Source: an uncultured Candidatus Saccharibacteria bacterium (GTDB lineage: Bacteria; Patescibacteriota; Minisyncoccia; Phycocordibacterales; WO2-35-19). From it: a stretch of DNA of 64,000 nt. The stretch is from the NCBI GenBank assembly GCA_964630525.1, contig CAZVUY010000003.1, forward strand, positions 48,699 to 112,698. Direction: 5' to 3'. The translations under genes were made by a program, and so were the position numbers. Below the pieces are notes generated by a model that did not search any database, was not told where the DNA came from, and saw only the letters and a program-made list of their open reading frames with translations. Below, one piece after another: positions 15,903-26,345 of the stretch. The first letter of the stretch is position 1; each line of letters begins with the position of its first letter.

Positions 15903-15976
15903 TGCCGGGTCGTCTAATGGTAGGACATCAGGTTTTGGTCCTGAGTATCGGGGTTCGAGTCCCTGCCCGGCAGCCA
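15903..15976 (+). tRNA. tRNA-Gln (UUG), CCA encoded
   Basis: U1-A72 acceptor pair, anticodon loop UUUUGGU, T-loop UUCGAGU, terminal CCA. Confidence 0.8.
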
Positions 15977-16126: not shown

Positions 16127-17596
16127 ATGATAACTCGAAGATTGGAATTTTGGGCTGACAGCTTCCATGAGGGAAATTGGGCTTGTGAGGAGCTTTCCAA
16201 ATTTTTTAAGCTGAAAAACATTTCTTATGCAAAGGGTTTTATACCAGTCTTTATTTTCTCGATTGATAAAGACACGGAGCTTGAGGTTACCGTTTTGGGA
16301 TCGTATAAGAATTGGTCGCCCATTCCTAAACCAATAAGTGAGCTGTTAGAGTGGGGTAAACCAGATCTCGTTGCTTACGATGTAGAGGATGACAAAATTC
16401 TTTTTGCGATGGAAGAAACTGCCGCAGTCCCTACTGGTAACCAGGCATTACAACGTTGCGAGCGCATTTACGGAAGTCTTCGACTAGGCATTCCATTTTG
16501 GTATCTTTTGGGAGAATTCGGCCTCCATGTGGATGGTGGGGTTCGAAGAGATTCCATTTGGCCAACCGTTTTGGGTATCAAGCTAAGTTGTATTCAACGT
16601 ACACCCTGCATGGTTCTTCATTACTCAGACCAAGAGCATCCAGAAGATTACTCAGTCGGCGAAGGCGTTAAATCCTTATATACAGCTCTTGCTACAGAAA
16701 TTGAAATTTTCCTTGGTAAAAAGAAGCGGGCTGACCTGAACCAAGTTCTTTCTGAGCAATATGCTCACATGCTTAAGTTTGTAGAGAGTCAGGGCCATAA
16801 TCTAGTGAACTTTATTCCTAATAAAGATGTTCTTTATCACTCAGATACTCCAATGCGTCTGGCACAGCTGGTTACTTCAGGTGAAGTGTTGAGTAATGAT
16901 GATCTTGATTTCTTTAATTGGGGAAAGACTGATGAGCTCCCATCAGAGATTTATGAAAAAATAAGACCCGGAGGATCAATAAAAGAAGATGTTTTCGTAA
17001 AATCTTTAGAAGGTTTAGTGGAAAGCAAAAAGGCCTATACCTTGTCAGGAAACGCTGGTTCACGACCTCAGGATATTGAAAGTATTCGTGAATGGTTGAG
17101 TCAACAAAAAGCATTGTTTGAGGCGGGTAATACCACAAACGCAAAATTTACACTTAAAGAAGGCGATTTCCCTTCGAGTATTTCAGGTAGGAGGCATGTT
17201 ACGACTGCTAAGAACGTGTTTTATCTGGTCGATTCATGTGAAGACATCGAAAATGCATTGAAGTTAAGTTTCCCTAGACTTAGTAGTCTTGATCTAACAT
17301 CAAAGGAGATGCCGGCGTTCGTGTATATTTCTAATAGCTTAAAGCCTGGTCGAATTTTTGGTGACCCATTTACAGGTCAGTTGTCAGCTTTTGCAAATAT
17401 TTTTACAAAGAATGTGCTCGGTGATAAAACGAGAATCTCTATTGCTTACTATCCCCATCAAGTTCATACTCAACTATTAGATCGGAATGGCAAACTGAGA
17501 CGCAACAAGGGAATTGTATTGATGTCTGAACTTCTCGACTACGCTGTTTTTCTGGGTGGGGTTGTCGTGAACATGAAATCAGGAGAAATCATATGA
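16127..17596 (+). CDS. Hypothetical protein (489 aa), first gene of a putative restriction-modification / defence operon
   Basis: ORF whose stop overlaps the next start (ATGA). A weak PDLVAYDVEDD...AMEE region. No clear domain. Confidence 0.45.
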   Translation: MITRRLEFWADSFHEGNWACEELSKFFKLKNISYAKGFIPVFIFSIDKDTELEVTVLGSYKNWSPIPKPISELLEWGKPDLVAYDVEDDKILFAMEETAAVPTGNQALQRCERIYGSLRLGIPFWYLLGEFGLHVDGGVRRDSIWPTVLGIKLSCIQRTPCMVLHYSDQEHPEDYSVGEGVKSLYTALATEIEIFLGKKKRADLNQVLSEQYAHMLKFVESQGHNLVNFIPNKDVLYHSDTPMRLAQLVTSGEVLSNDDLDFFNWGKTDELPSEIYEKIRPGGSIKEDVFVKSLEGLVESKKAYTLSGNAGSRPQDIESIREWLSQQKALFEAGNTTNAKFTLKEGDFPSSISGRRHVTTAKNVFYLVDSCEDIENALKLSFPRLSSLDLTSKEMPAFVYISNSLKPGRIFGDPFTGQLSAFANIFTKNVLGDKTRISIAYYPHQVHTQLLDRNGKLRRNKGIVLMSELLDYAVFLGGVVVNMKSGEII

Positions 17597-18165
17597 TCAA
17601 ATACACTTTCAACATCAATGAGGAAATTGCTCGGTGGGTTACCGAGGTGTACGTACGCGATAATAAAAATCTAGATTGGTGGGTAGCTTTTACTAATCCT
17701 ATTGCTGGTCCTTGGAAGAAAATAACAGCACTAAACGGAGACGGAGTTCCTGTTGAGATTTACCGATTCGAAAGAGAGGGAGAAAGGCCGGATCTTATTT
17801 TGGTCAATGACACGCATAAGACAATACTAATTATCGAGGCAAAAGATTTTGTTCAGAAATTAGTAGCTGGTGAGCAAATGCGTAAATCTGCCCGTGTTAT
17901 TAAAGAAATTACTTCTATACTTAGAAATTGCGGTAATGAACATTGGGTATCACGTAAGGATTATAAAATTATTCCTTCGTTCTTATGGTATACAGATAAA
18001 CAAGATCTGATTAAGCCAGAGGATGAGTTGGTACGAGTAACTTATAAAACAGTAGCGGATGATGATTCTGAACTATTGAATATAGTGATCACAAAAGGTG
18101 AATCAGGAGATCTAAAGAACAACTTTGTCTACAATTCACAGATCACTGATGATCTAACTGTTTAA
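17593..18165 (+). CDS. PD-(D/E)xK nuclease-fold protein (candidate restriction endonuclease subunit)
   Basis: RPDLILVND...ILIIEAKD motif. Converges on the methyltransferase genes. Confidence 0.5.
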   Translation: MIKYTFNINEEIARWVTEVYVRDNKNLDWWVAFTNPIAGPWKKITALNGDGVPVEIYRFEREGERPDLILVNDTHKTILIIEAKDFVQKLVAGEQMRKSARVIKEITSILRNCGNEHWVSRKDYKIIPSFLWYTDKQDLIKPEDELVRVTYKTVADDDSELLNIVITKGESGDLKNNFVYNSQITDDLTV

Positions 18166-20030
18166 AATAAAGTGGAAGTTCTGGTAATTCTTTGGAGATA
18201 GGCGTAATTTTTGTCGAATAAGACCGTGTGCTTCAATAGGTTTTTTACTTCTCCCAATGAAGGTGAACCGATATCAAAAGTAGACTCAAGTATAGCTTCA
18301 TAAAGTTCCTTTATACTCTTTTTACCATCTCGCAAAAGATCCACAGCCACATTTGCAACATATTCCTCAATCTTTTTCGCGTTCTCTATTTCTCCAAGAA
18401 ACTCATCTCTAAGTTGGTAATAATCCTTATCACTTGTCGCAATCGGAATAATTACTTCATTTATTTTTCCGAGAGTGAGTGTATTCATACCCTCATTTAG
18501 GATGCATAGGATGATCATCCTATGCACAAGGTTTTTTGGAGCGGTCCCTCCGCGACTCAGTAAAACCTTTTTAGCTATTTCGGTTAGGTGAAAAAGATCC
18601 TGCTTCTTTTTTGGGGGATGCACTTTCTTTTCAAATACACAGTAGTAGTCTCCCACATAGCTTGTGTTTGAAGCCGTCTGTGATTTTGATGATACCACTG
18701 CAGGAATTTGATATTTTGCCTCAGTACAAACGAAAGATTTTTCTGAGAAAGACTCAAGAACGATCTTCCATGCACGGGGATCTAGATTATTGAAAGTCAT
18801 AATAATTTTTCCTCCTTTTTTCAGCTTGCGCTGAAATAGATCCACGATAATTGCTATATCTGCTCCGTACTTATCCCAGGAGCTTACGTATTCTTTTCTG
18901 TCAGAAACGATAATTTCGTCATCGTAGGAAACTCTTTTCTTGAGGAAGCCGTTCCAAATGGCAGAGAATTCTACATACGGAACATTATCTCCGTAAGGTG
19001 GATCAAAGAAAATACCATCGATGCTTTCATCCTCAAATTCCTCTAGCCCATTCTGAGCAGGTTTTAAATCAATTTTGGATGTCGCACCTGTATTTTTGTA
19101 ACTACTTGCGAGAGCCTCAAGTCCTTTAACAAATTTTTTGTATCTAGCCTGTAGGTGAATCACTGGATTTGTTTCAAGGTGTAATGGAGCAATCCAAAAA
19201 CCTGGGATAGTCCATGCAGGCCCGCCTGTACTCAGGTTATTTCTGTAAGGTATAAGTCGTGACGATTGCGCAACGGAAGATGTTAAAAGTAAGAGTGCAG
19301 CATTTCTAATAGAATCTTTTTTTATCTTATGGGCTTTATCGAAGAGTTGGGAAAGTACATAAAATGCTCTAGGGGTGAACAGGTCAGAAAGTTGCATTCC
19401 CGGAAAAGCCAGAATTCTACGATTAATCAATAAATTTTCACTGTCTATCCTGGGAATTTTCTGAATAATAGATTCCTGTTTTTCAATAGCCTTTTTATCT
19501 ATATAAACTTCATTATCACGAGTGATAATTTTTACGATCCTAGTGCCTGTAAACTTTTCAAAATTAAAATACAGTCTTTCGTCACATTTCGCGCAGTGGT
19601 ATTTAGACCCTTTTTTTATTGCATTATCAATTGATCCAATGGTGTTGCAAGAAGGACACTCTGATTCCATGCGATGCACTAAGTACCGGACGTCCTTTCC
19701 ATCGAGGGTATAGAGTTCCTTAAAAGAATCCGCAAACGAAATCAGGTTCTCAATTTCGTGATTAAATTCCTCCACAGTAGGGGGATTAACTGTGACTTCA
19801 GAAAGTAGTTGAGCTAACGGATTTATGTCGAAACCCCTAGAATTAATCCCCAGCTTTTTTGCCTCAGCCAAGAAAACTCCACTTCCACAAAAAGGATCTA
19901 CTACTAAATCACCAGGCTTAAAATGTGACCTTATATATCCATGTAGAATATTTGAAGGCTTTCGTGCCCAGTACTTATGAATTAGGTATTCATTGGGATG
20001 GGTCTCAGCCATCAGTGCTCTTGAGCTCAT
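18162..20030 (-). CDS. DNA methyltransferase (N6-adenine/N4-cytosine type)
   Basis: Motif I VVDPFCGSG and motif IV IFFDPPYG with a long intervening region. Confidence 0.75.
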   Translation of the reverse strand: MSSRALMAETHPNEYLIHKYWARKPSNILHGYIRSHFKPGDLVVDPFCGSGVFLAEAKKLGINSRGFDINPLAQLLSEVTVNPPTVEEFNHEIENLISFADSFKELYTLDGKDVRYLVHRMESECPSCNTIGSIDNAIKKGSKYHCAKCDERLYFNFEKFTGTRIVKIITRDNEVYIDKKAIEKQESIIQKIPRIDSENLLINRRILAFPGMQLSDLFTPRAFYVLSQLFDKAHKIKKDSIRNAALLLLTSSVAQSSRLIPYRNNLSTGGPAWTIPGFWIAPLHLETNPVIHLQARYKKFVKGLEALASSYKNTGATSKIDLKPAQNGLEEFEDESIDGIFFDPPYGDNVPYVEFSAIWNGFLKKRVSYDDEIIVSDRKEYVSSWDKYGADIAIIVDLFQRKLKKGGKIIMTFNNLDPRAWKIVLESFSEKSFVCTEAKYQIPAVVSSKSQTASNTSYVGDYYCVFEKKVHPPKKKQDLFHLTEIAKKVLLSRGGTAPKNLVHRMIILCILNEGMNTLTLGKINEVIIPIATSDKDYYQLRDEFLGEIENAKKIEEYVANVAVDLLRDGKKSIKELYEAILESTFDIGSPSLGEVKNLLKHTVLFDKNYAYLQRITRTSTLF

Positions 20031-21271
20031 GTTTTCTTAAGAATTACCATTAGGTCACAAAGGTTAATTCCAACGTCTCCACCTTTTCTTCGTTGGCTTG
20101 CAGCCCATGAAGCCTCAGTGAACTTAGGTATTCTGAGAGCTACTTTTTCCACATTATATACATCTTTCAATCTGTGGATTAGATTATGTGTGACAGGTAT
20201 ATATTGACCTTTGATAACAGTGTCGCCAATCATTAAGACAACTCTACCATCAGACTCTAAGTAGCCGTTTAGGTTTCGAAGCCCGTTCTCCATATCATTA
20301 AGATATTCCTCAACTTTTTCTGGCTTTCCAACTTTAAATGCTTCTCTAATTTCACCTTTTCGAATAGATGCATGATCTATATCAAGCCAGGCCAGTTCAA
20401 GTGAATTAACTCCACTGTATTTATATGAATTAAAGTAAGGTGGATGACAGATAATTAATTTAGCAACCTGGTCCTTGCTATTTGGCGTATCAAATATAGA
20501 TCGAACTTCAATATTAATAACCGACTTCCTGGTTTTGGGTAGTTCAGGGGCTGACTCCGCAATTTCTAATGCTTTTTTAAGAAAGAAAGGGAAGGCATCC
20601 TTTTCAGCCGTCTCCACATCTAGAAAAAGTCTCCCTTGTTGTGTTGTCGCCCGCGAAACCCTACGGACGATACCCAAGAAAGCAACCATTAAAGCGTCTT
20701 TAATTTCAGAAGAGTAACTCAGATTCTTAACCCCTGTTCGAATCTTTTCAAGAGAAATAATTGTTTCTGGTAGAAACCAATGATCGGGGTTTCTTAGTCC
20801 CGTTAAAACAGGTTTTTTTATCCTTTTTGAATTTGTATAAAAATCTCTTACTTCATTGAGAGCTTGGAGATAGTCTTCCTTGTCAATCTTTGTAGTTTTA
20901 ACTCGTGATATCAGTACAGACAGAGGGTTGATATCGAAGCAAGAAGCCTGTCTCTTTAATAAGAGGGCTTCTAGTGCTGTGGTTCCACTACCACACATGG
21001 GATCAATAACCAAATCATTTTCCTTCGTGTATTCTTTAATTGCATGTCTTGCAATAGGAGGGGGGAATTTACCAAAATATCTGAAAATGCCATGAGATAA
21101 ATAAGACAGTGTTTTGTTTGAGGCACTAGAAGTCCAAACCTCGATATCTTTTGAAAGTTCCTTGATTCTGCTCCTATTTATTAAATCAGCATACTTTTCC
21201 TGAATTTCGTGGCTTGAAAAATCAACAATTTCAAGTTCTGGGATATTATCTTTTACGTTATAGATAGACAT
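20027..21271 (-). CDS. DNA methyltransferase (N6/N4 type), second copy
   Basis: VIDPMCGSGTT motif I and ICHPPYF motif IV. Its stop overlaps the start of the other methyltransferase gene. Confidence 0.7.
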   Translation of the reverse strand: MSIYNVKDNIPELEIVDFSSHEIQEKYADLINRSRIKELSKDIEVWTSSASNKTLSYLSHGIFRYFGKFPPPIARHAIKEYTKENDLVIDPMCGSGTTALEALLLKRQASCFDINPLSVLISRVKTTKIDKEDYLQALNEVRDFYTNSKRIKKPVLTGLRNPDHWFLPETIISLEKIRTGVKNLSYSSEIKDALMVAFLGIVRRVSRATTQQGRLFLDVETAEKDAFPFFLKKALEIAESAPELPKTRKSVINIEVRSIFDTPNSKDQVAKLIICHPPYFNSYKYSGVNSLELAWLDIDHASIRKGEIREAFKVGKPEKVEEYLNDMENGLRNLNGYLESDGRVVLMIGDTVIKGQYIPVTHNLIHRLKDVYNVEKVALRIPKFTEASWAASQRRKGGDVGINLCDLMVILKKT

Positions 21272-21321
21272 CAGCAATGTATATAGAATATGTTTGCAAT
21301 GTAATTATATCAGTAAAGTCT

Positions 21322-22638
21322 TTAATTTAACGATACCCGCTTGTTGATAAGTGTAATTTTCCCCCTTAAACAGCCGAGCAATTCTCTTTTTTCAAAATCT
21401 TTCCCTTCTCTAAGAATATATTTAGCATAATTACGAATATCTATTTCAGGTATATCAGGCCTTTCCCTGTTACCTAGTAGTACCCTTTGAAATTTTTTAT
21501 ACCTCTCCACTTCTTCTTTTATCTTCTTATTTATGCCGAGTTCGTCTATCTCGATCTGATCAATTAATTTCTCAAACTGAGTGATTAGATCATTCTCGTT
21601 GATATAGTTACCCTTACAATCCACCCCTTTACTCCTTGAACATCCGTAGTAGACATGTCTGTTCACGCTTCCACTCTTTAGCTTCTTAAATTTCTCCTCT
21701 GCTGTTATTCCGGAGCTGCATAGCCCACAAACCATCAACTTGGTAAAAGCAAACTCCTTATTTGAACCTCTAACGTAATCTATTCGCATATTTTCTTGCA
21801 CCATATCAAACAATTCTTTCGTTATGATAGGTTCGTGCTTGCCCTTATACCAATTACCGCTTTTTGTTGGAAACTCAAATGTGCCGTAATAGAAGTGATT
21901 GCATAATATCCGATGAACATTTCCTATGCTTAGGTTTTTATTTCCATTGGCTGTCCTAAAATTAAGATCAAATTTAAGCCAATTATAAATTTTCCTTGTT
22001 GACCACTTTTCGTAGGCTGCTTTTTCAAACATTTTCTTAATAATTGGCGCTCTCTCTGGATCTATCATCACATATCCCTTTCTATCGATTCTCTTTTCCG
22101 TAAGGTAGCCAGTCGGTGCAACAGATGGCCACAATCCCATTTCTACTCTAGCTCTCAACCCTCGTTTTACGTTTATGCTTTTATTATCGTTTTCAAGTTT
22201 TGCCTGAGAACATAGAATCATTAGTAGAAATTTTTCGCTCGGAGTGTTCGTAAAGGTTTGGCCGTAGGTTCTAATTTGTGTCAGTTTTTTCTCATCCATT
22301 AAATCAACAATTGATCCCAGATCTCCGGCGTTTCTAGACAATCTATCTGGATGCCAAACTAGTATTCCGTTGAATCTATCTCTCCTTAGATCCTCAAGAA
22401 TCTCTTTAAATACTGGCCGTTGCCCTGAATCCTTGGCAGAATGGGCTTCTCGTCGTATGTCTACAATCTCAAGGCTTTCTCGCTCAGCTATAGCGAGCAT
22501 TTCTTTAACCTGAGACTCAATTGATAAGGCCTGCTTTTCATCTTGTTCTGTTGATTTACGAGCATATAAGCAATACCTAACTTTTATTACTGGTATTGGT
22601 AATGGATTGCCGATTAGGGCAGTTGCTTGCGTTTCCAT
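21322..22638 (-). CDS. Large serine recombinase (integrase/transposase type)
   Basis: N-terminal YARKSTEQDEKQALSIESQ serine catalytic domain, a recombinase domain and a C-terminal Cys-rich zinc ribbon. ATG at 22638. Confidence 0.8.
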   Translation of the reverse strand: METQATALIGNPLPIPVIKVRYCLYARKSTEQDEKQALSIESQVKEMLAIAERESLEIVDIRREAHSAKDSGQRPVFKEILEDLRRDRFNGILVWHPDRLSRNAGDLGSIVDLMDEKKLTQIRTYGQTFTNTPSEKFLLMILCSQAKLENDNKSINVKRGLRARVEMGLWPSVAPTGYLTEKRIDRKGYVMIDPERAPIIKKMFEKAAYEKWSTRKIYNWLKFDLNFRTANGNKNLSIGNVHRILCNHFYYGTFEFPTKSGNWYKGKHEPIITKELFDMVQENMRIDYVRGSNKEFAFTKLMVCGLCSSGITAEEKFKKLKSGSVNRHVYYGCSRSKGVDCKGNYINENDLITQFEKLIDQIEIDELGINKKIKEEVERYKKFQRVLLGNRERPDIPEIDIRNYAKYILREGKDFEKRELLGCLRGKITLINKRVSLN

Positions 22639-22968
22639 GTATATATTGATGACAGACCCCAAAACCCTGCATAGCTATGCAGAACTAAGAAAACGTCGCA
22701 TACTCGCGTTTAGGGCTTAGCAAAAGCTCTGTAGTGCGATAGATTCAAATGGATAGCCGTAAGTGCTATCATGTAAATACAACTGAATATTGGCCCGTAA
22801 AGGGCAGGACCTAAACCCGAAAGGGCATGGTCCCAAATTCGCAAGCAACATAGAGAACCCGTCATTAGGGCGTTGCTTGCGTTACTAGGGGAAACCCTAG
22901 TAGAGGAGTCCGCGAGGCCCTTCCTAGTGGCGGGCTTTCTGTTTCTATTAAAAACGCAAGCAACAAAC

Positions 22969-23847
22969 ATGATTAAGAAAATATTACTGGGGCTAATTGG
23001 AGGCTTTGTCCTACTCGTATGGATCGGATCAATGCTTCCAGATGTCCCAAGGGAGGAAGTAAGCCAAGATAAAGTTTCTGTCTCATCTGATGTTCAAGAA
23101 GCAACTGCTCCTCAAATATCAATACAAGAAACTAGTTCAGTTACGAATCAATCTCCTACTACTGAAACCGCAACCAAGTCAGTCCAAACGACTCAATCAA
23201 GTCCCACTACAGCCCCGCAATACACATATTATTCAGTAACTGATGTGGTAGACGGAGATACGGTCAAAGTGAATATAAATGGAACTGTAACAACTCTTCG
23301 ATTGATTGGAATGGATACGCCAGAGACTGTTGATCCCAGAAAACCAGTTCAATGCTTTGGTAAAGAAGCATCTAACAAAGCAAAAGAATTACTTTCAGGA
23401 AAGAAAGTAAGACTTGAGATGGATCCAAGCCAAGGAACTCTCGATACTTATGGCAGAACTCTTGCTTATATCTACCGAGAAGACGGTTTGTTCTTTAACA
23501 AATACATGATTGAGCAGGGGTATGCCCACGAGTATACCTACCGAACTCCATACAAATACCAGGCTGAATTTAAAACTGCTCAAAAGACAGCTCAAACCAA
23601 TCAGGCGGGACTGTGGTCTCCAAGTACCTGTAACGGAGATACGACCTCCTCTTCCGAAACTGTCCCAGCCACTACTTCATCAGGTGGAAAGTTCTACACC
23701 TCATCACACTACAGTGCGAAATATTACTATCCAGAGGCATGTAATGGTTGGGAAAGTCTAAGTCCAACTTATCTCAAATCATTCGATACCCTAGAAGCTT
23801 TATTGGCTTCTTATCCTTCGAGAACTAAGAGCCCACAGTGTCAGTAG
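22969..23847 (+). CDS. Membrane-anchored thermonuclease (SNase family)
   Basis: N-terminal TM helix, a Ser/Thr-rich linker, then an SNase core LIGMDTPETV...GRTLAYIY. Confidence 0.75.
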   Translation: MIKKILLGLIGGFVLLVWIGSMLPDVPREEVSQDKVSVSSDVQEATAPQISIQETSSVTNQSPTTETATKSVQTTQSSPTTAPQYTYYSVTDVVDGDTVKVNINGTVTTLRLIGMDTPETVDPRKPVQCFGKEASNKAKELLSGKKVRLEMDPSQGTLDTYGRTLAYIYREDGLFFNKYMIEQGYAHEYTYRTPYKYQAEFKTAQKTAQTNQAGLWSPSTCNGDTTSSSETVPATTSSGGKFYTSSHYSAKYYYPEACNGWESLSPTYLKSFDTLEALLASYPSRTKSPQCQ

Positions 23848-24247
23848 TCTGGTTACTTTCTGTCTTGCCCCTGCTTGAGGTCGGCTCATTTTTACCATGT
23901 CTAATGATCACCTCAAAACCTTCCGATCTTTTTACTCCCATTAATTCAGCAATCAACCCTTTCGGTCTTGGTCGTACGTAGTTTTTATGATGATTATCAA
24001 GCCAATACTTCACAGCCCACTTTTCACCCCTTTGCATAGCCAAAAATAATTTACTATGTGCCAAATCATTTCCTGTTTCTTCTCCTAACTGCATGGCCTT
24101 ATCCATTTCTTTTCTGAACGCAGGATCTTTTTCTCGCCATTGGTAAACTGTGTTTCTTGCGATTCCAAGATTCTTGCAGACAACCGAGACATTCGGAAGT
24201 AGGCATAATTCCTCCAGAAGCTTTTTAGATTTTCGGTACTTCTTCAT
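23825..24247 (-). CDS. HTH protein, phage terminase small-subunit-like
   Basis: N-terminal HTH LLEELCLLPNVSVVCKNLGIARNTVYQW. Sits next to a ParB-MTase gene, as in phage packaging regions. Confidence 0.4.
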   Translation of the reverse strand: MKKYRKSKKLLEELCLLPNVSVVCKNLGIARNTVYQWREKDPAFRKEMDKAMQLGEETGNDLAHSKLFLAMQRGEKWAVKYWLDNHHKNYVRPRPKGLIAELMGVKRSEGFEVIIRHGKNEPTSSRGKTESNQTTDTVGS

Positions 24248-25508
24248 CTCTTAATACTTCAGCAGTTAACCCGGTGAGTTTTTCCCAACGCTTAACAATG
24301 AGATCGCAAAATATTGGCTCGAGCTCAATCCCATAGACTCTACGCTTTAATTGTTCTCCTGCGATTAGGGTACTACCAGAACCTAGGAAGCTATCCAAAA
24401 TCACGTCTCCAGGCCTTGTGCAGCGTAGGATGGCCTTCTCATGGAGCTTCGGTGGCTTTGAGGTAGCATGTTCGTAATCTTTGCCTGCCAATCTCTTAAC
24501 AGCCCAGATATCTCCAATCTGATCTAACATCTCGTTTCCTGTACTAATTTCTTTATTTAAAACCTCGTTAAGATCTTGCTTATCAGTTGAGAGATACGGA
24601 GAGCCTTTAGTGCCATAGGTACAAGGTTCGTAACACTTGTTGAATGCAACTGTAGGAGTGGGGTTGTGGCCATTCTTTACCCACAAGCACACTCGCTTAT
24701 TGTTAATTCCAAGTTCGGCGTAAAGAGTCTGCATGAGCCAAATGTATCGCTGATCCGACCAGTAAAAAATGTGGAAATCTTTCTTGGCTACGGAAAGAGC
24801 GTTTACCATAGAACTTCTAATTAGATTTCTGTACGCCTCTTCAGTGCGATTGTCCTCGACTTTACCACCGTAACCTCTTTTACCGCCGATACCTTTGTCA
24901 TAACTTACGTTCAGGTTATAGATAGGGTCCGAATAGATCATGGACGTCTTCTCATCCTCGAATAGTTTATGGACCACTTTTGGGTCAGTAGAGTCGCCAC
25001 AAATAATCTTGTGCTTACCCAGAGTGATAACATCTCCGAGTTTAGTCTTAGGTTCCCTAATCTTCTTGACCTCTTTTTCTACATCGAAGTCGTCGTCTTC
25101 AACTTCTGCATCCTTAGCCCAGATGTTATCTAACTCAATTTGGTCAAAACCGATATCCACCAGTAGATCCACATCAAAGTCCTTGAGTTTCTCGAAATCC
25201 CAGTCTCCAATCACGGCGTTACTCGTGAGCATATATCTTTTGTATTCATCTTCCGTTAGTTTACGATTTGGTACTCTCACTTCAATTTCTTCCTTACCTC
25301 TGCCAAGAATTTGGAGGGCTCTGATTCTTTGATGTCCGGCGCAGATCTTGCCATCTAGGTCTATTGCTGGAATTTCTACTAGATTAAACTTCTTTAAACT
25401 TTTCTTAAGATCTTCCATTGTCTTGTCCGACATAACCCTTGGGTTCTTAGGGGAGGGTAAGAGGGCGTCGACTGTACGTTTTTCCGTATGCCATATAAGT
25501 TTTTTCAT
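24225..25508 (-). CDS. ParB-like nuclease domain / DNA methyltransferase fusion
   Basis: ParB motif LVEIPAIDLDGKICAGHQRIRAL. Methyltransferase motifs SDPIYN and ILDSFLGSGST. ATG at 25508. Confidence 0.75.
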   Translation of the reverse strand: MKKLIWHTEKRTVDALLPSPKNPRVMSDKTMEDLKKSLKKFNLVEIPAIDLDGKICAGHQRIRALQILGRGKEEIEVRVPNRKLTEDEYKRYMLTSNAVIGDWDFEKLKDFDVDLLVDIGFDQIELDNIWAKDAEVEDDDFDVEKEVKKIREPKTKLGDVITLGKHKIICGDSTDPKVVHKLFEDEKTSMIYSDPIYNLNVSYDKGIGGKRGYGGKVEDNRTEEAYRNLIRSSMVNALSVAKKDFHIFYWSDQRYIWLMQTLYAELGINNKRVCLWVKNGHNPTPTVAFNKCYEPCTYGTKGSPYLSTDKQDLNEVLNKEISTGNEMLDQIGDIWAVKRLAGKDYEHATSKPPKLHEKAILRCTRPGDVILDSFLGSGSTLIAGEQLKRRVYGIELEPIFCDLIVKRWEKLTGLTAEVLRDEEVPKI

Positions 25509-25658
25509 ATTGTTGGTGATTAGCTTTGTAACCACTTCTAGACCTTACGCAAAACGGGCCCACAACGCCGATCCCGTAGGATCTGCTTTGTGGGCCCGTA
25601 GGCTCCGAATCTATGTAAGTGTGCTTAAAGTTTATATCCACCCGTAAAGGGTGTCAAG

Positions 25659-26345
25659 ATGCTTTACAAAATCTGTGGATTGGGCGATAATGAAAGTATG
25701 CATCAAACACAGCAGAAATTACTTGACCTGATTGGTCGCCAAGACCTGGGGAAAATGAGCCTAAGGCAGATTGCTAAGCTCGTGGGGGTTGAAAATAAGC
25801 CTCAGATCGTGAAGCATCATCTTCTTCAGCTTGAGAAGGCGGGGCTTATTCAGCTTAACCTCGAAAGTGGCATAATCCGTCTCACTAGCCGAGGGTTTAA
25901 CCCATCTCCTGTTAAGAGCATTTTCTACTCTATTCCCATTGTGGGTGCCGCTAACTGTGGCCCAGCAAATATTTTTGCAGAAGAAAGAGTTGAGGGGTAT
26001 CTAAAGGTATCTTCAAAAATGCTTCCCCGCAGGAGAAATGATCTCTATGTGCTTATAGCTGACGGACCATCCATGAACCGGGCGGAAGTGGTTGATGGCA
26101 AAACCATCGATAGTGGCGACTTCGTTATTGTTGACCGTTCATATAATACCCCTAAGGATGGTGACATCGTCGTGGCTGTTATTGACGGCATGGCGACAAT
26201 CAAAAGATATCGGGAAGATAAGGATCACGATCAAATTATTCTCGAGGCGGAATCTACTGAGAAATTTCTTCCAGTCTTTATCCACGAGGGAGACGATTTC
26301 GTGATTAGCGGTAAGGTTATCAATGTTATTAAGAATCCAAAATAA
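25659..26345 (+). CDS. S24-peptidase repressor (CI/LexA-like)
   Basis: N-terminal wHTH and C-terminal S24 domain (ADGPSMN ... GDIVVA ... TIKR). Divergent from the ParB-MTase gene. Confidence 0.7.
   Translation: MLYKICGLGDNESMHQTQQKLLDLIGRQDLGKMSLRQIAKLVGVENKPQIVKHHLLQLEKAGLIQLNLESGIIRLTSRGFNPSPVKSIFYSIPIVGAANCGPANIFAEERVEGYLKVSSKMLPRRRNDLYVLIADGPSMNRAEVVDGKTIDSGDFVIVDRSYNTPKDGDIVVAVIDGMATIKRYREDKDHDQIILEAESTEKFLPVFIHEGDDFVISGKVINVIKNPK

What the first reader, a model, noticed from the sequence alone, without database searches (positions are those of the whole stretch)
16127..21277. Four-gene restriction-modification-like module: two methyltransferases, a PD-(D/E)xK nuclease and an unknown 489-aa partner
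Two N6/N4-type methyltransferase genes lie in an operon with overlapping stop and start. They converge, with a 4-nt stop overlap, on a two-gene operon that encodes a 489-aa protein of unknown fold and a 190-aa PD...EAK nuclease. Two methyltransferases plus a two-subunit nuclease resemble heteromeric Type II or IIS systems such as BbvCI, which uses R1, R2, M1 and M2. The 489-aa protein has no obvious motif and could be a novel specificity subunit or a separate defence component.
Basis: partly seen in the sequence, partly recalled or inferred. Interest (0 to 1): 0.6.

Follow-up and report, generated by a model that had tools for sequence, protein, structure and literature searches.

The report
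BsrDI-type heterodimeric restriction-modification system
The four genes are an intact copy of a known restriction-modification system, the BsrDI type, in which a large and a small nuclease subunit each cut one DNA strand and two methylases protect the host; it is ordinary, apart from a conserved pair of the enzyme's own target sites in the methylase promoter.

Summary
In detail: there are four intact ORFs at the stated coordinates, with ATGA stop/start overlaps inside each gene pair and a 4-nt overlap of the two converging stop codons. The 489-aa protein is not an unknown. It is 48% identical over its full length to R.BsrDI subunit B (Nb.BsrDI, ABD15132.1). It carries that family's PD-X15-E-X12-QR site (D80/E96/Q109/R110), and its predicted fold matches only BsmI in the PDB. 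The 190-aa protein is 42% identical to BsrDI subunit A and keeps D67/E82/K84. The two methyltransferases are 38% and 50% identical to the BsrDI methyltransferases. Gene order and orientation match the Geobacillus BsrDI locus and most of about 60 metagenomic loci that were long enough to judge. This is therefore a new member of a known heterodimeric Type IIS/IIT family. It sits next to tRNA-Gln and a large serine recombinase in a low-GC island.

One extra finding: CATTGC, the complement of the BsrDI site GCAATG, occurs twice, 22 nt apart, just upstream of the first methyltransferase gene. The same pair is present in authentic BsrDI and in 24 of 54 dereplicated loci (63-fold enrichment). This supports GCAATG specificity and suggests that the methylase operon regulates itself through its own target site. 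I found no description of this for BsrDI in the papers searched.

The parts
16127..17596 (+). Large nuclease subunit, the R.BsrDI subunit B / Nb.BsrDI homologue (489 aa, 55.2 kDa). It has an N-terminal non-canonical catalytic site PD-X15-E-X12-QR (D80, E96, Q109, R110), followed by the presumed target-recognition region.
   Evidence: PADLOC PDLC03392 'Type II nicking endonuclease', E 1.9e-142, full length. 48% identity over 100% coverage to P0091 = ABD15132.1 R2.BsrDI / UniRef A1XI22 Nb.BsrDI. The motif aligns to BsmI PD..E-X12-QR. AF2 pLDDT 86.7. The only significant Foldseek hits in the PDB are BsmI, E 1e-13.
17593..18165 (+). Small nuclease subunit, the R.BsrDI subunit A homologue (190 aa, 22.1 kDa). 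It has the canonical PD-(D/E)XK site PD-X14-EAK (D67, E82, K84) and is translationally coupled to the large-subunit gene through an ATGA overlap.
18162..20030 (-). Second methyltransferase of the M operon (622 aa). Motif I DPFCGSG is at residue 45, motif IV DPPY is at residue 343, and a CxxC...CxxC cluster lies at residues 125-149.
   Evidence: Pfam N6_N4_Mtase E 1.7e-14. PADLOC MTase_II PDLC03367 E 7.3e-135. 38% identity over 621 aligned positions to the 633-aa BsrDI-locus methyltransferase. Motifs.
20027..21277 (-). First methyltransferase of the M operon (416 aa from TTG 21277, or more likely 414 aa from ATG 21271). Motif I DPMCGSG is at residue 92 and motif IV HPPY is at residue 278.
   Evidence: Pfam N6_N4_Mtase E 9.9e-21. 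PADLOC PDLC03239 E 1.4e-105. 50% identity to the 425-aa BsrDI-locus methyltransferase. The 414-aa gene call is on L004. Motifs.
21296..21301 (-). Distal copy of CATTGC (complement of the BsrDI site GCAATG), 2 nt downstream of the -10 hexamer and at about the expected transcription start of the M operon.
   Evidence: Sequence. Site positions. The same TGATATAAT-ta-CATTGC arrangement is present in the authentic BsrDI locus L001. Family-wide enrichment.
21274..21279 (-). Proximal copy of CATTGC, 22 nt downstream of the distal copy, ending 2 nt before ATG 21271.
   Evidence: Spacing is always 21 or 22 nt in the 24 dereplicated loci that have two or more copies.
21304..21312 (-). Extended -10-like promoter element TGATATAAT of the methyltransferase operon. 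This is an inference from the sequence.
   Evidence: Sequence. The identical TGATATAAT is present at the same place in L001, L009 and L013. In 12 of 28 site-bearing loci a TATAAT-like hexamer ends 2-3 nt before a site.

Best explanation
This is an intact BsrDI-family heterodimeric Type IIS (Type IIT) restriction-modification system, carried as cargo at the edge of a low-GC integrated element next to tRNA-Gln and a large serine recombinase. By homology with BsrDI, the 489-aa subunit recognises the whole asymmetric site. It nicks the bottom strand with its N-terminal PD...E-X12-QR site. The 190-aa subunit has no specificity of its own, docks on the large subunit and cuts the top strand with its PD...EAK site, which gives a double-strand break with a 2-nt 3' overhang. 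The two amino-methyltransferases each protect one strand. The most likely target is GCAATG, the BsrDI site. Two cognate sites 22 nt apart lie over the start of the methyltransferase operon. I infer that they let methylation status or methyltransferase binding feed back on methyltransferase expression. Shown here: homology of all four proteins, conserved catalytic residues, folds, synteny and conservation of the site pair. Inferred: enzymatic activity, the exact specificity and cut positions, and the regulatory role of the sites.
Against: There is no biochemical or methylome evidence. At 48% identity in the specificity-bearing subunit, identical specificity is not guaranteed. GCAATG/CATTGC is not under-represented in the 64-kb window (28 observed against 27-29 expected), so there is no genomic footprint of restriction pressure. 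About half of the family's loci, mostly those with 43% identity or less, lack the site pair, and no alternative repeated motif was found in them. The regulatory design is therefore not universal. Pfam and NCBIfam have no model for either nuclease subunit.
Confidence: 0.85

Rival explanations
1. This is a BsrDI-family system with a diverged recognition sequence. The architecture and chemistry are the same, but the target is not GCAATG.
For: Identity to Nb.BsrDI is only 48%. Family members BsrDI and BtsI differ by one base in their sites (PMC1950550). Some loci carry variant upstream motifs: CACTGC with CATAGC in L041 and L047, and CATTGC with CATAGC in L017, L035 and L085. This suggests that specificity or operator drift occurs within the family. 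There is no GCAATG avoidance in the window.
Against: The window locus keeps two exact CATTGC copies in the same TGATATAAT-ta-CATTGC context as authentic BsrDI. All 9 loci of its subclade also keep them. Similarity to BsrDI runs evenly through the central presumed recognition region.
Confidence: 0.2
2. The paired CATTGC motifs are not an autoregulatory operator. They could be inherited promoter sequence or the binding site of an unrelated host factor, with the methyltransferase operon expressed constitutively.
For: No experiment links the sites to expression. Half of the family lacks them. No dedicated regulator or helix-turn-helix domain was detected in either methyltransferase.
Against: Of all 4096 6-mers, the most enriched one is exactly the experimentally known recognition site of the family's type enzyme (63-fold). 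The spacer and flanks between copies are not conserved, and the position of the copies relative to the -10 element varies. Spacing (21-22 nt) and strand are fixed. The sites occur in both the convergent and the co-directional gene arrangements. This pattern indicates selection on the sites themselves.
Confidence: 0.3
3. This is a BbvCI-like Type IIT system, the first reader's analogue, with two similar subunits that each contribute to recognition and each cut one strand.
For: It has a two-subunit nuclease plus two methyltransferases and an asymmetric-site logic. Both systems are classed as Type IIT heterodimers (PMC4081073).
Against: The subunits are very unequal (489 against 190 aa). The large subunit uses the PD..E-X12-QR site typical of the BsrDI/BtsI/BsmI/BsrI group. 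No BbvCI chain appeared in PDB sequence or fold searches. Direct 38-50% identity to all four BsrDI proteins settles the family.
Confidence: 0.02
4. This is an inactive remnant. The genes are intact as ORFs but restriction has been lost, so the locus now works only as a methylation module.
For: There is no site avoidance in the window. A related cassette in L007 appears broken into short ORFs, so decay does occur in this family.
Against: All four ORFs are full length relative to BsrDI. Every mutagenesis-defined catalytic residue is conserved. The translational coupling overlaps are intact.
Confidence: 0.1

Closest known systems
BsrDI restriction-modification system of Geobacillus (Bacillus) stearothermophilus D70 (R.BsrDI subunits B and A, M1.BsrDI, M2.BsrDI; GenBank DQ367879; Xu et al. 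2007, PMC1950550)
   Same: It has the same four genes in the same order and orientation: large subunit, then small subunit, converging on the two methyltransferases. Identities are 48%, 42%, 38% and 50%. All catalytic residues are the same, subunit sizes are similar, and cognate CATTGC copies lie next to a TGATATAAT element upstream of the first methyltransferase gene.
   Different: The host is an uncultivated, moderately low-GC organism rather than a thermophilic Firmicute. The small subunit is 27 residues shorter at the C-terminus. There are two site copies rather than three. The flanking mobile gene is a serine recombinase rather than a transposase. Specificity and activity have not been measured.
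BtsI (GCAGTG 2/0), heterodimeric, same enzyme group
   Same: A large subunit with the PD..E-X12-QR site nicks the bottom strand, a small PD..EXK subunit cuts the top strand, and there are two methyltransferases (PMC1950550).
   Different: The BtsI large subunit is much smaller (38 kDa). Its gene order differs (M1, small subunit, M2, large subunit), and the two nuclease genes are separated and opposed.
BsmI / Mva1269I / BsrI, single-chain Type IIS enzymes with two catalytic sites (BsmI structures 9F38, 9EZD and others; PMC11889245)
   Different: In BsmI the two catalytic domains are fused in one 676-residue chain, whereas here they are separate polypeptides. Sequence identity is only about 15%.
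CfrBI, LlaDII and LlaJI: restriction-modification systems with cognate recognition sites in the methyltransferase promoter
   Same: The system's own recognition site or sites lie in the promoter region of the modification gene. [quoted passage not shown] The LlaJI promoter carries two sites (PMC1459862).
   Different: The proteins are unrelated. Here the two sites are direct repeats on one strand, 21-22 nt apart. The regulatory effect is inferred only from conservation.

Membership tests
BsrDI-type heterodimeric Type IIS/IIT restriction endonuclease | Large subunit homologous over its full length to R.BsrDI subunit B (Nb.BsrDI) | tested here: met
   48% identity, 100% coverage, E 5e-157 to ABD15132.1. 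PADLOC nicking-endonuclease model E 1.9e-142, profile positions 5-486 of 488.
BsrDI-type heterodimeric Type IIS/IIT restriction endonuclease | N-terminal bottom-strand catalytic site (P/A/F)D-X13-17-E-X12-QR in the large subunit | tested here: met
   PD-X15-E-X12-QR at residues 79-110. D80/E96/Q109/R110 align to the mutagenesis-validated D83/E99/Q112/R113 and are invariant in 14 homologues.
BsrDI-type heterodimeric Type IIS/IIT restriction endonuclease | Separate small subunit with the canonical PD-Xn-EXK top-strand site | tested here: met
   42% identity to BsrDI subunit A. D67/E82/K84 sit at the same numbering as the validated BsrDI residues and are invariant in 19 homologues.
BsrDI-type heterodimeric Type IIS/IIT restriction endonuclease | Fold shared with the solved family member BsmI | tested here: met
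BsrDI-type heterodimeric Type IIS/IIT restriction endonuclease | Two separate amino-methyltransferases accompany the nuclease genes | tested here: met
   The 622-aa and 416-aa N6_N4 methyltransferases are 38% and 50% identical to the BsrDI-locus methyltransferases and lie in the same arrangement.
BsrDI-type heterodimeric Type IIS/IIT restriction endonuclease | Recognition of GCAATG with 2/0 cleavage, with the large subunit alone acting as a bottom-strand nickase | not testable with these tools
   Support is indirect only: cognate CATTGC pairs are conserved in the methyltransferase promoter here and in authentic BsrDI. No site avoidance was seen in the window.
BsrDI-type heterodimeric Type IIS/IIT restriction endonuclease | Physical heterodimer of the large and small subunits | not tested
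Overlapping ATGA genes and strict co-occurrence of the two genes in the metagenomic loci are consistent with a complex.
BbvCI-type heterodimeric Type IIT endonuclease | Two subunits of similar size, both taking part in recognition and both homologous to BbvCI R1/R2 | tested here: not met
   The subunits are 489 and 190 aa. No BbvCI chain was recovered in PDB sequence or fold searches. The large subunit uses the E-X12-QR motif of the BsrDI/BsmI group.
BspD6I / Nt.BstNBI-type heterodimer (large nickase plus small subunit) | Large subunit homologous to N.BspD6I and small subunit homologous to the BspD6I small subunit | tested here: not met
Restriction-modification systems autoregulated through cognate sites in the methyltransferase promoter (CfrBI / LlaDII kind) | [quoted passage not shown] | tested here: met
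   Two CATTGC copies lie at 21301-21296 and 21279-21274, directly after TGATATAAT and before the ATG. Family-wide enrichment is 63-fold. This assumes GCAATG specificity, which is itself inferred.
Restriction-modification systems autoregulated through cognate sites in the methyltransferase promoter (CfrBI / LlaDII kind) | Methyltransferase expression changes with methylation or methyltransferase binding at those sites | not testable with these tools
   This needs reporter fusions, gel-shift assays or transcript mapping.

The most novel reading that the evidence does not exclude
The direct-repeat pair of cognate CATTGC sites is fixed at 21-22 nt spacing and on the sense strand across the methyltransferase promoter and 5' leader. 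It could be a family-wide epigenetic autoregulatory switch that has not been described for BsrDI-type (Type IIT) systems. If so, such self-targeting operators could be used to read the recognition sequence of uncharacterised restriction-modification systems directly from genome sequence. In the convergent arrangement the switch might also time nuclease expression through transcriptional interference.
Probability: 0.5. Interest if true: 0.4.

Novelty: new member of a known kind. Interest (0 to 1): 0.22.

Why it matters
The main result is a clean reassignment. A 'mystery' 489-aa partner turns out to be the well-characterised large subunit of a commercial-enzyme family, so the locus is not a new defence system. 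It has modest practical value. It adds an intact BsrDI relative from an uncultivated, apparently mesophilic lineage, together with dozens of metagenomic relatives. These are candidate sources of natural nicking enzymes (Nb.BsrDI-like) with different temperature optima or altered specificity. The conserved cognate-site pair in the methyltransferase promoter is the only part that goes beyond the literature I could search. If functional, it extends methylation-coupled self-regulation to heterodimeric Type IIS systems. It would also offer a sequence-only clue to specificity.

Tried and rejected
- **Family models:** Pfam and NCBIfam gave nothing for either nuclease subunit. I dismissed the weak AlgF hit on the 489-aa protein (18 bits against a cut-off of 34) as chance.
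- **Site avoidance:** GCAATG/CATTGC occurs 28 times against 27-29 expected and ranks mid-table among all 6-mers. This test is uninformative on specificity.
- **Island boundaries:** no convincing att-type direct repeats were found between 15.8 and 37.3 kb.
- **Phages and plasmids:** the large subunit has no homologue in the 50,697 phage or 72,556 plasmid records.
- **Operator-less loci:** a search for an alternative 6-mer repeated at 20-23 nt spacing found nothing consistent.
- **Host taxonomy:** cluster look-ups returned no organism names. The only named relatives are a Saccharibacteria MAG, an Acidobacteriota MAG and an 876-kb 'uncultured bacterium' chromosome.
- **Promoter scan:** the generic sigma-70 scan did not flag the methyltransferase promoter because it has no -35 match. 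The extended -10 reading rests on direct inspection and conservation.
- **Literature:** full-text searches found no description of promoter sites in BsrDI.
Full report
**Observation.** The sequence confirms an ATGA stop/start overlap inside each co-directional pair. It also confirms a 4-nt overlap of the two converging stop codons. Both minus-strand proteins are N6/N4 amino-methyltransferases (Pfam PF01555, E 1.7e-14 and 9.9e-21). The 190-aa protein carries PD-X14-EAK at residues 66-84. The cassette has 38.6% GC against 44.1% outside the 16-36 kb region.

**What the 489-aa protein is.** It is not an orphan. PADLOC's model PDLC03392, 'Type II nicking endonuclease', matches it end to end (E 1.9e-142). 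A database search found 388 homologues. One of them, P0091, is 48% identical over 100% of the length. Its accessions are ABD15132.1 'R2.BsrDI [Geobacillus stearothermophilus]' and UniRef A1XI22 'Nb.BsrDI'.

Xu et al. 2007 (PMC1950550) showed that BsrDI (GCAATG 2/0) is a heterodimer.
- The 56-kDa B subunit binds the site and nicks the bottom strand. It uses a non-canonical N-terminal site, (P/A/F)D-X13-17-E-X12-QR, with catalytic residues D83, E99, Q112 and R113.
- The 25-kDa A subunit is inactive alone. It cuts the top strand with a canonical PD-Xn-EXK site (D67, E82, K84).

The body of that paper assigns the motifs this way. Its abstract states the reverse, and I followed the Results and the mutagenesis.

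In the window protein the corresponding residues are D80, E96, Q109 and R110, within PDLVAYDVEDDKILFAMEETAAVPTGNQALQR. The same segment is the only part that aligns by sequence to the solved BsmI structures. These residues are invariant in a 14-sequence family alignment.

**The other three proteins and synteny.** In the Geobacillus contig that encodes Nb.BsrDI (L001), the gene order is 488 aa (+), 217 aa (+), then a converging 633-aa and 425-aa methyltransferase pair. This is exactly the window's layout.
- The 190-aa protein is 42% identical to the 217-aa BsrDI A subunit, with D67, E82 and K84 at identical positions. They are invariant in 19 homologues.
- The 622-aa methyltransferase is 38% identical to the 633-aa one.
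- The 416-aa methyltransferase is 50% identical to the 425-aa one.

tblastn of the four window proteins against the 87 fetched loci shows the whole cassette wherever the contig is long enough. The methyltransferase pair usually converges on the nuclease pair. In 9 of 53 dereplicated loci it is co-directional.

BsmI is the single-chain relative in which the two catalytic domains are fused (PMC11889245). It is thought to derive from an ancestral heterodimer. The 489-aa protein thus corresponds to the N-terminal catalytic and recognition parts of BsmI. The 190-aa protein corresponds to its C-terminal catalytic domain.

**Mechanism.** By homology (inferred, not shown), the large subunit binds the asymmetric site and nicks the bottom strand. 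The small subunit docks and cuts the top strand two bases beyond the site. Each methyltransferase modifies one strand. The 622-aa enzyme has DPFCGSG at residue 45 and DPPY at residue 343. The 416-aa enzyme has DPMCGSG at residue 92 and HPPY at residue 278. Which base each one modifies cannot be told from sequence.

**Specificity, and an unexpected regulatory feature.** Counting GCAATG/CATTGC in the window showed no avoidance (28 against 27-29 expected). Two of the sites, however, lie 22 nt apart in the 45-bp gap upstream of the first methyltransferase gene. Read on the gene's sense strand, the sequence is cTGATATAATtaCATTGCaaacatattctatataCATTGCtgATG.

The authentic BsrDI locus has TGATATAATtaCATTGC in the same place, within a run of three CATTGC copies spaced 21-22 nt apart.

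Across 54 dereplicated loci, CATTGC is the most enriched 6-mer in the 100 nt upstream of this gene (54 observed, 0.86 expected, 63-fold).
- 28 loci have at least one copy and 24 have two or more.
- Every spacing is 21 or 22 nt, and all copies are on the sense strand.
- The regions upstream of the large-subunit gene carry it in 1 of 76 cases.

The intervening and flanking bases are not conserved. The copies can lie after the -10-like hexamer or on both sides of it. The pair occurs in both gene arrangements and in all nine loci at least 55% identical to the window protein.

I read this as selection on the sites themselves, that is, an operator built from the system's own target. This has two consequences. 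First, it is the best available evidence that the window system still recognises GCAATG. Second, it suggests feedback on methyltransferase expression through methylation status or methyltransferase binding. Such feedback is documented for CfrBI and LlaDII (PMC3874152), and two sites are present in the LlaJI promoter (PMC1459862). The BsrDI paper does not mention these sites, and a full-text search found no other description.

There are limits. About half of the family, mainly the most distant members, lacks the pair, and no substitute motif was found. Nothing here shows function.

**Context.** tRNA-Gln lies 150 bp upstream of the large-subunit gene (15903-15976). A large serine recombinase (21322-22662, Resolvase + Recombinase + Zn_ribbon_recom) directly follows the methyltransferase operon. 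After it come an SNase-family nuclease, a small helix-turn-helix or terminase-small-like protein, a further N6_N4 methyltransferase and an S24/CI-like repressor.

Homologous recombinases (48-61% identity) adjoin the cassette in five other loci, on either side of it. One close relative (L020) has the cassette downstream of dnaX, as here. The cassette therefore looks like cargo of a family of serine-recombinase integrative elements. I could not define att sites. No homologue of the large subunit exists in the phage or plasmid collections.

**Comparison and verdict.** Every testable defining feature of the BsrDI family is met: full-length homology of both nuclease subunits, both catalytic motifs with validated residues, fold, two methyltransferases and gene order. 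Activity, cut positions and heterodimer formation remain untested. The locus is not a BbvCI-type or BspD6I-type system.

The suggestion of a novel 489-aa component is not. The locus is a new member of a known kind and its interest is low (0.22). The conserved self-site pair in the methyltransferase promoter is the one element worth a small follow-up.

Noticed in passing
window 21274-21312 (minus strand); L001 12285-12333; many loci: A pair or triplet of the cognate site CATTGC lies at 21-22 nt spacing next to a TGATATAAT element, upstream of the first methyltransferase gene. It is conserved from Geobacillus BsrDI to the window and in 24 of 54 dereplicated metagenomic loci. I found no description of it in the BsrDI literature I could search.
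   Followed up: yes
window 22808-22923 (+): An Rfam LOOT RNA (RF03000) match at 63.2 bits against a gathering score of 46.4, covering the full model. It lies in the divergent intergenic region between the serine recombinase gene and the SNase-family gene. Function is unknown, and a literature search gave nothing useful.
   Followed up: partly
window 15903-36400: A low-GC stretch (39.9% against 44.1%) begins at tRNA-Gln. It contains the restriction-modification cassette, a large serine recombinase (21322-22662), an SNase-like nuclease (22873-23847), a small helix-turn-helix/terminase-small-like protein (23825-24247), another N6_N4 methyltransferase (24225-25535) and an S24/CI-like repressor (25659-26345). 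It looks like an integrated element or prophage remnant. No att repeats were found.
   Followed up: partly
window 24225-25535 (-): A third DNA methyltransferase (436 aa, PF01555 E 2.9e-28) has no adjacent nuclease. Homologues (about 50% identity) travel with the same recombinase and cassette in L013 and L016, so it is probably an orphan methyltransferase of the mobile element.
   Followed up: no
window 18503-18526 (+): A perfect 10-bp-stem palindrome, TGCATAGGATGATCATCCTATGCA, is followed by a T-rich tail. It lies inside the 3' part of the 622-aa methyltransferase gene, on the strand of the nuclease operon and about 340 nt past that operon's stop codon. It could be a terminator for the nuclease operon embedded antisense in the methyltransferase gene, or it could be chance (3 such sites found against 4.2 expected in shuffles).
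   Followed up: no
L041, L047 (upstream of the 416-type methyltransferase gene); also L017, L035, L036, L085: Variant upstream motifs occur. L041 and L047 have CACTGC (complement of the BtsI site GCAGTG) with CATAGC. L017, L035, L036 and L085 have CATTGC paired with CATAGC. These may mark diverged specificity or a degenerating operator.
   Followed up: no
L007 6001-10906 (OY969557.1, 876-kb chromosome): The homologous cassette (67% identity in the large subunit) is split into short ORFs under genetic code 11. This suggests pseudogenisation or an alternative genetic code in that small genome.
   Followed up: no
L031, L032, L035, L036, L038, L041, L052, L055, L056, L061, L063: An alternative architecture has the two methyltransferase genes following the small-subunit gene on the same strand instead of converging on it. 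Where present, the CATTGC pair then lies between the small-subunit gene and the first methyltransferase gene.
   Followed up: partly
window, whole: The asymmetric site shows strand asymmetry: 20 GCAATG against 8 CATTGC on the plus strand. This is probably tied to gene orientation or replication-strand composition (GC skew is positive throughout) and is weakly significant at best.
   Followed up: no
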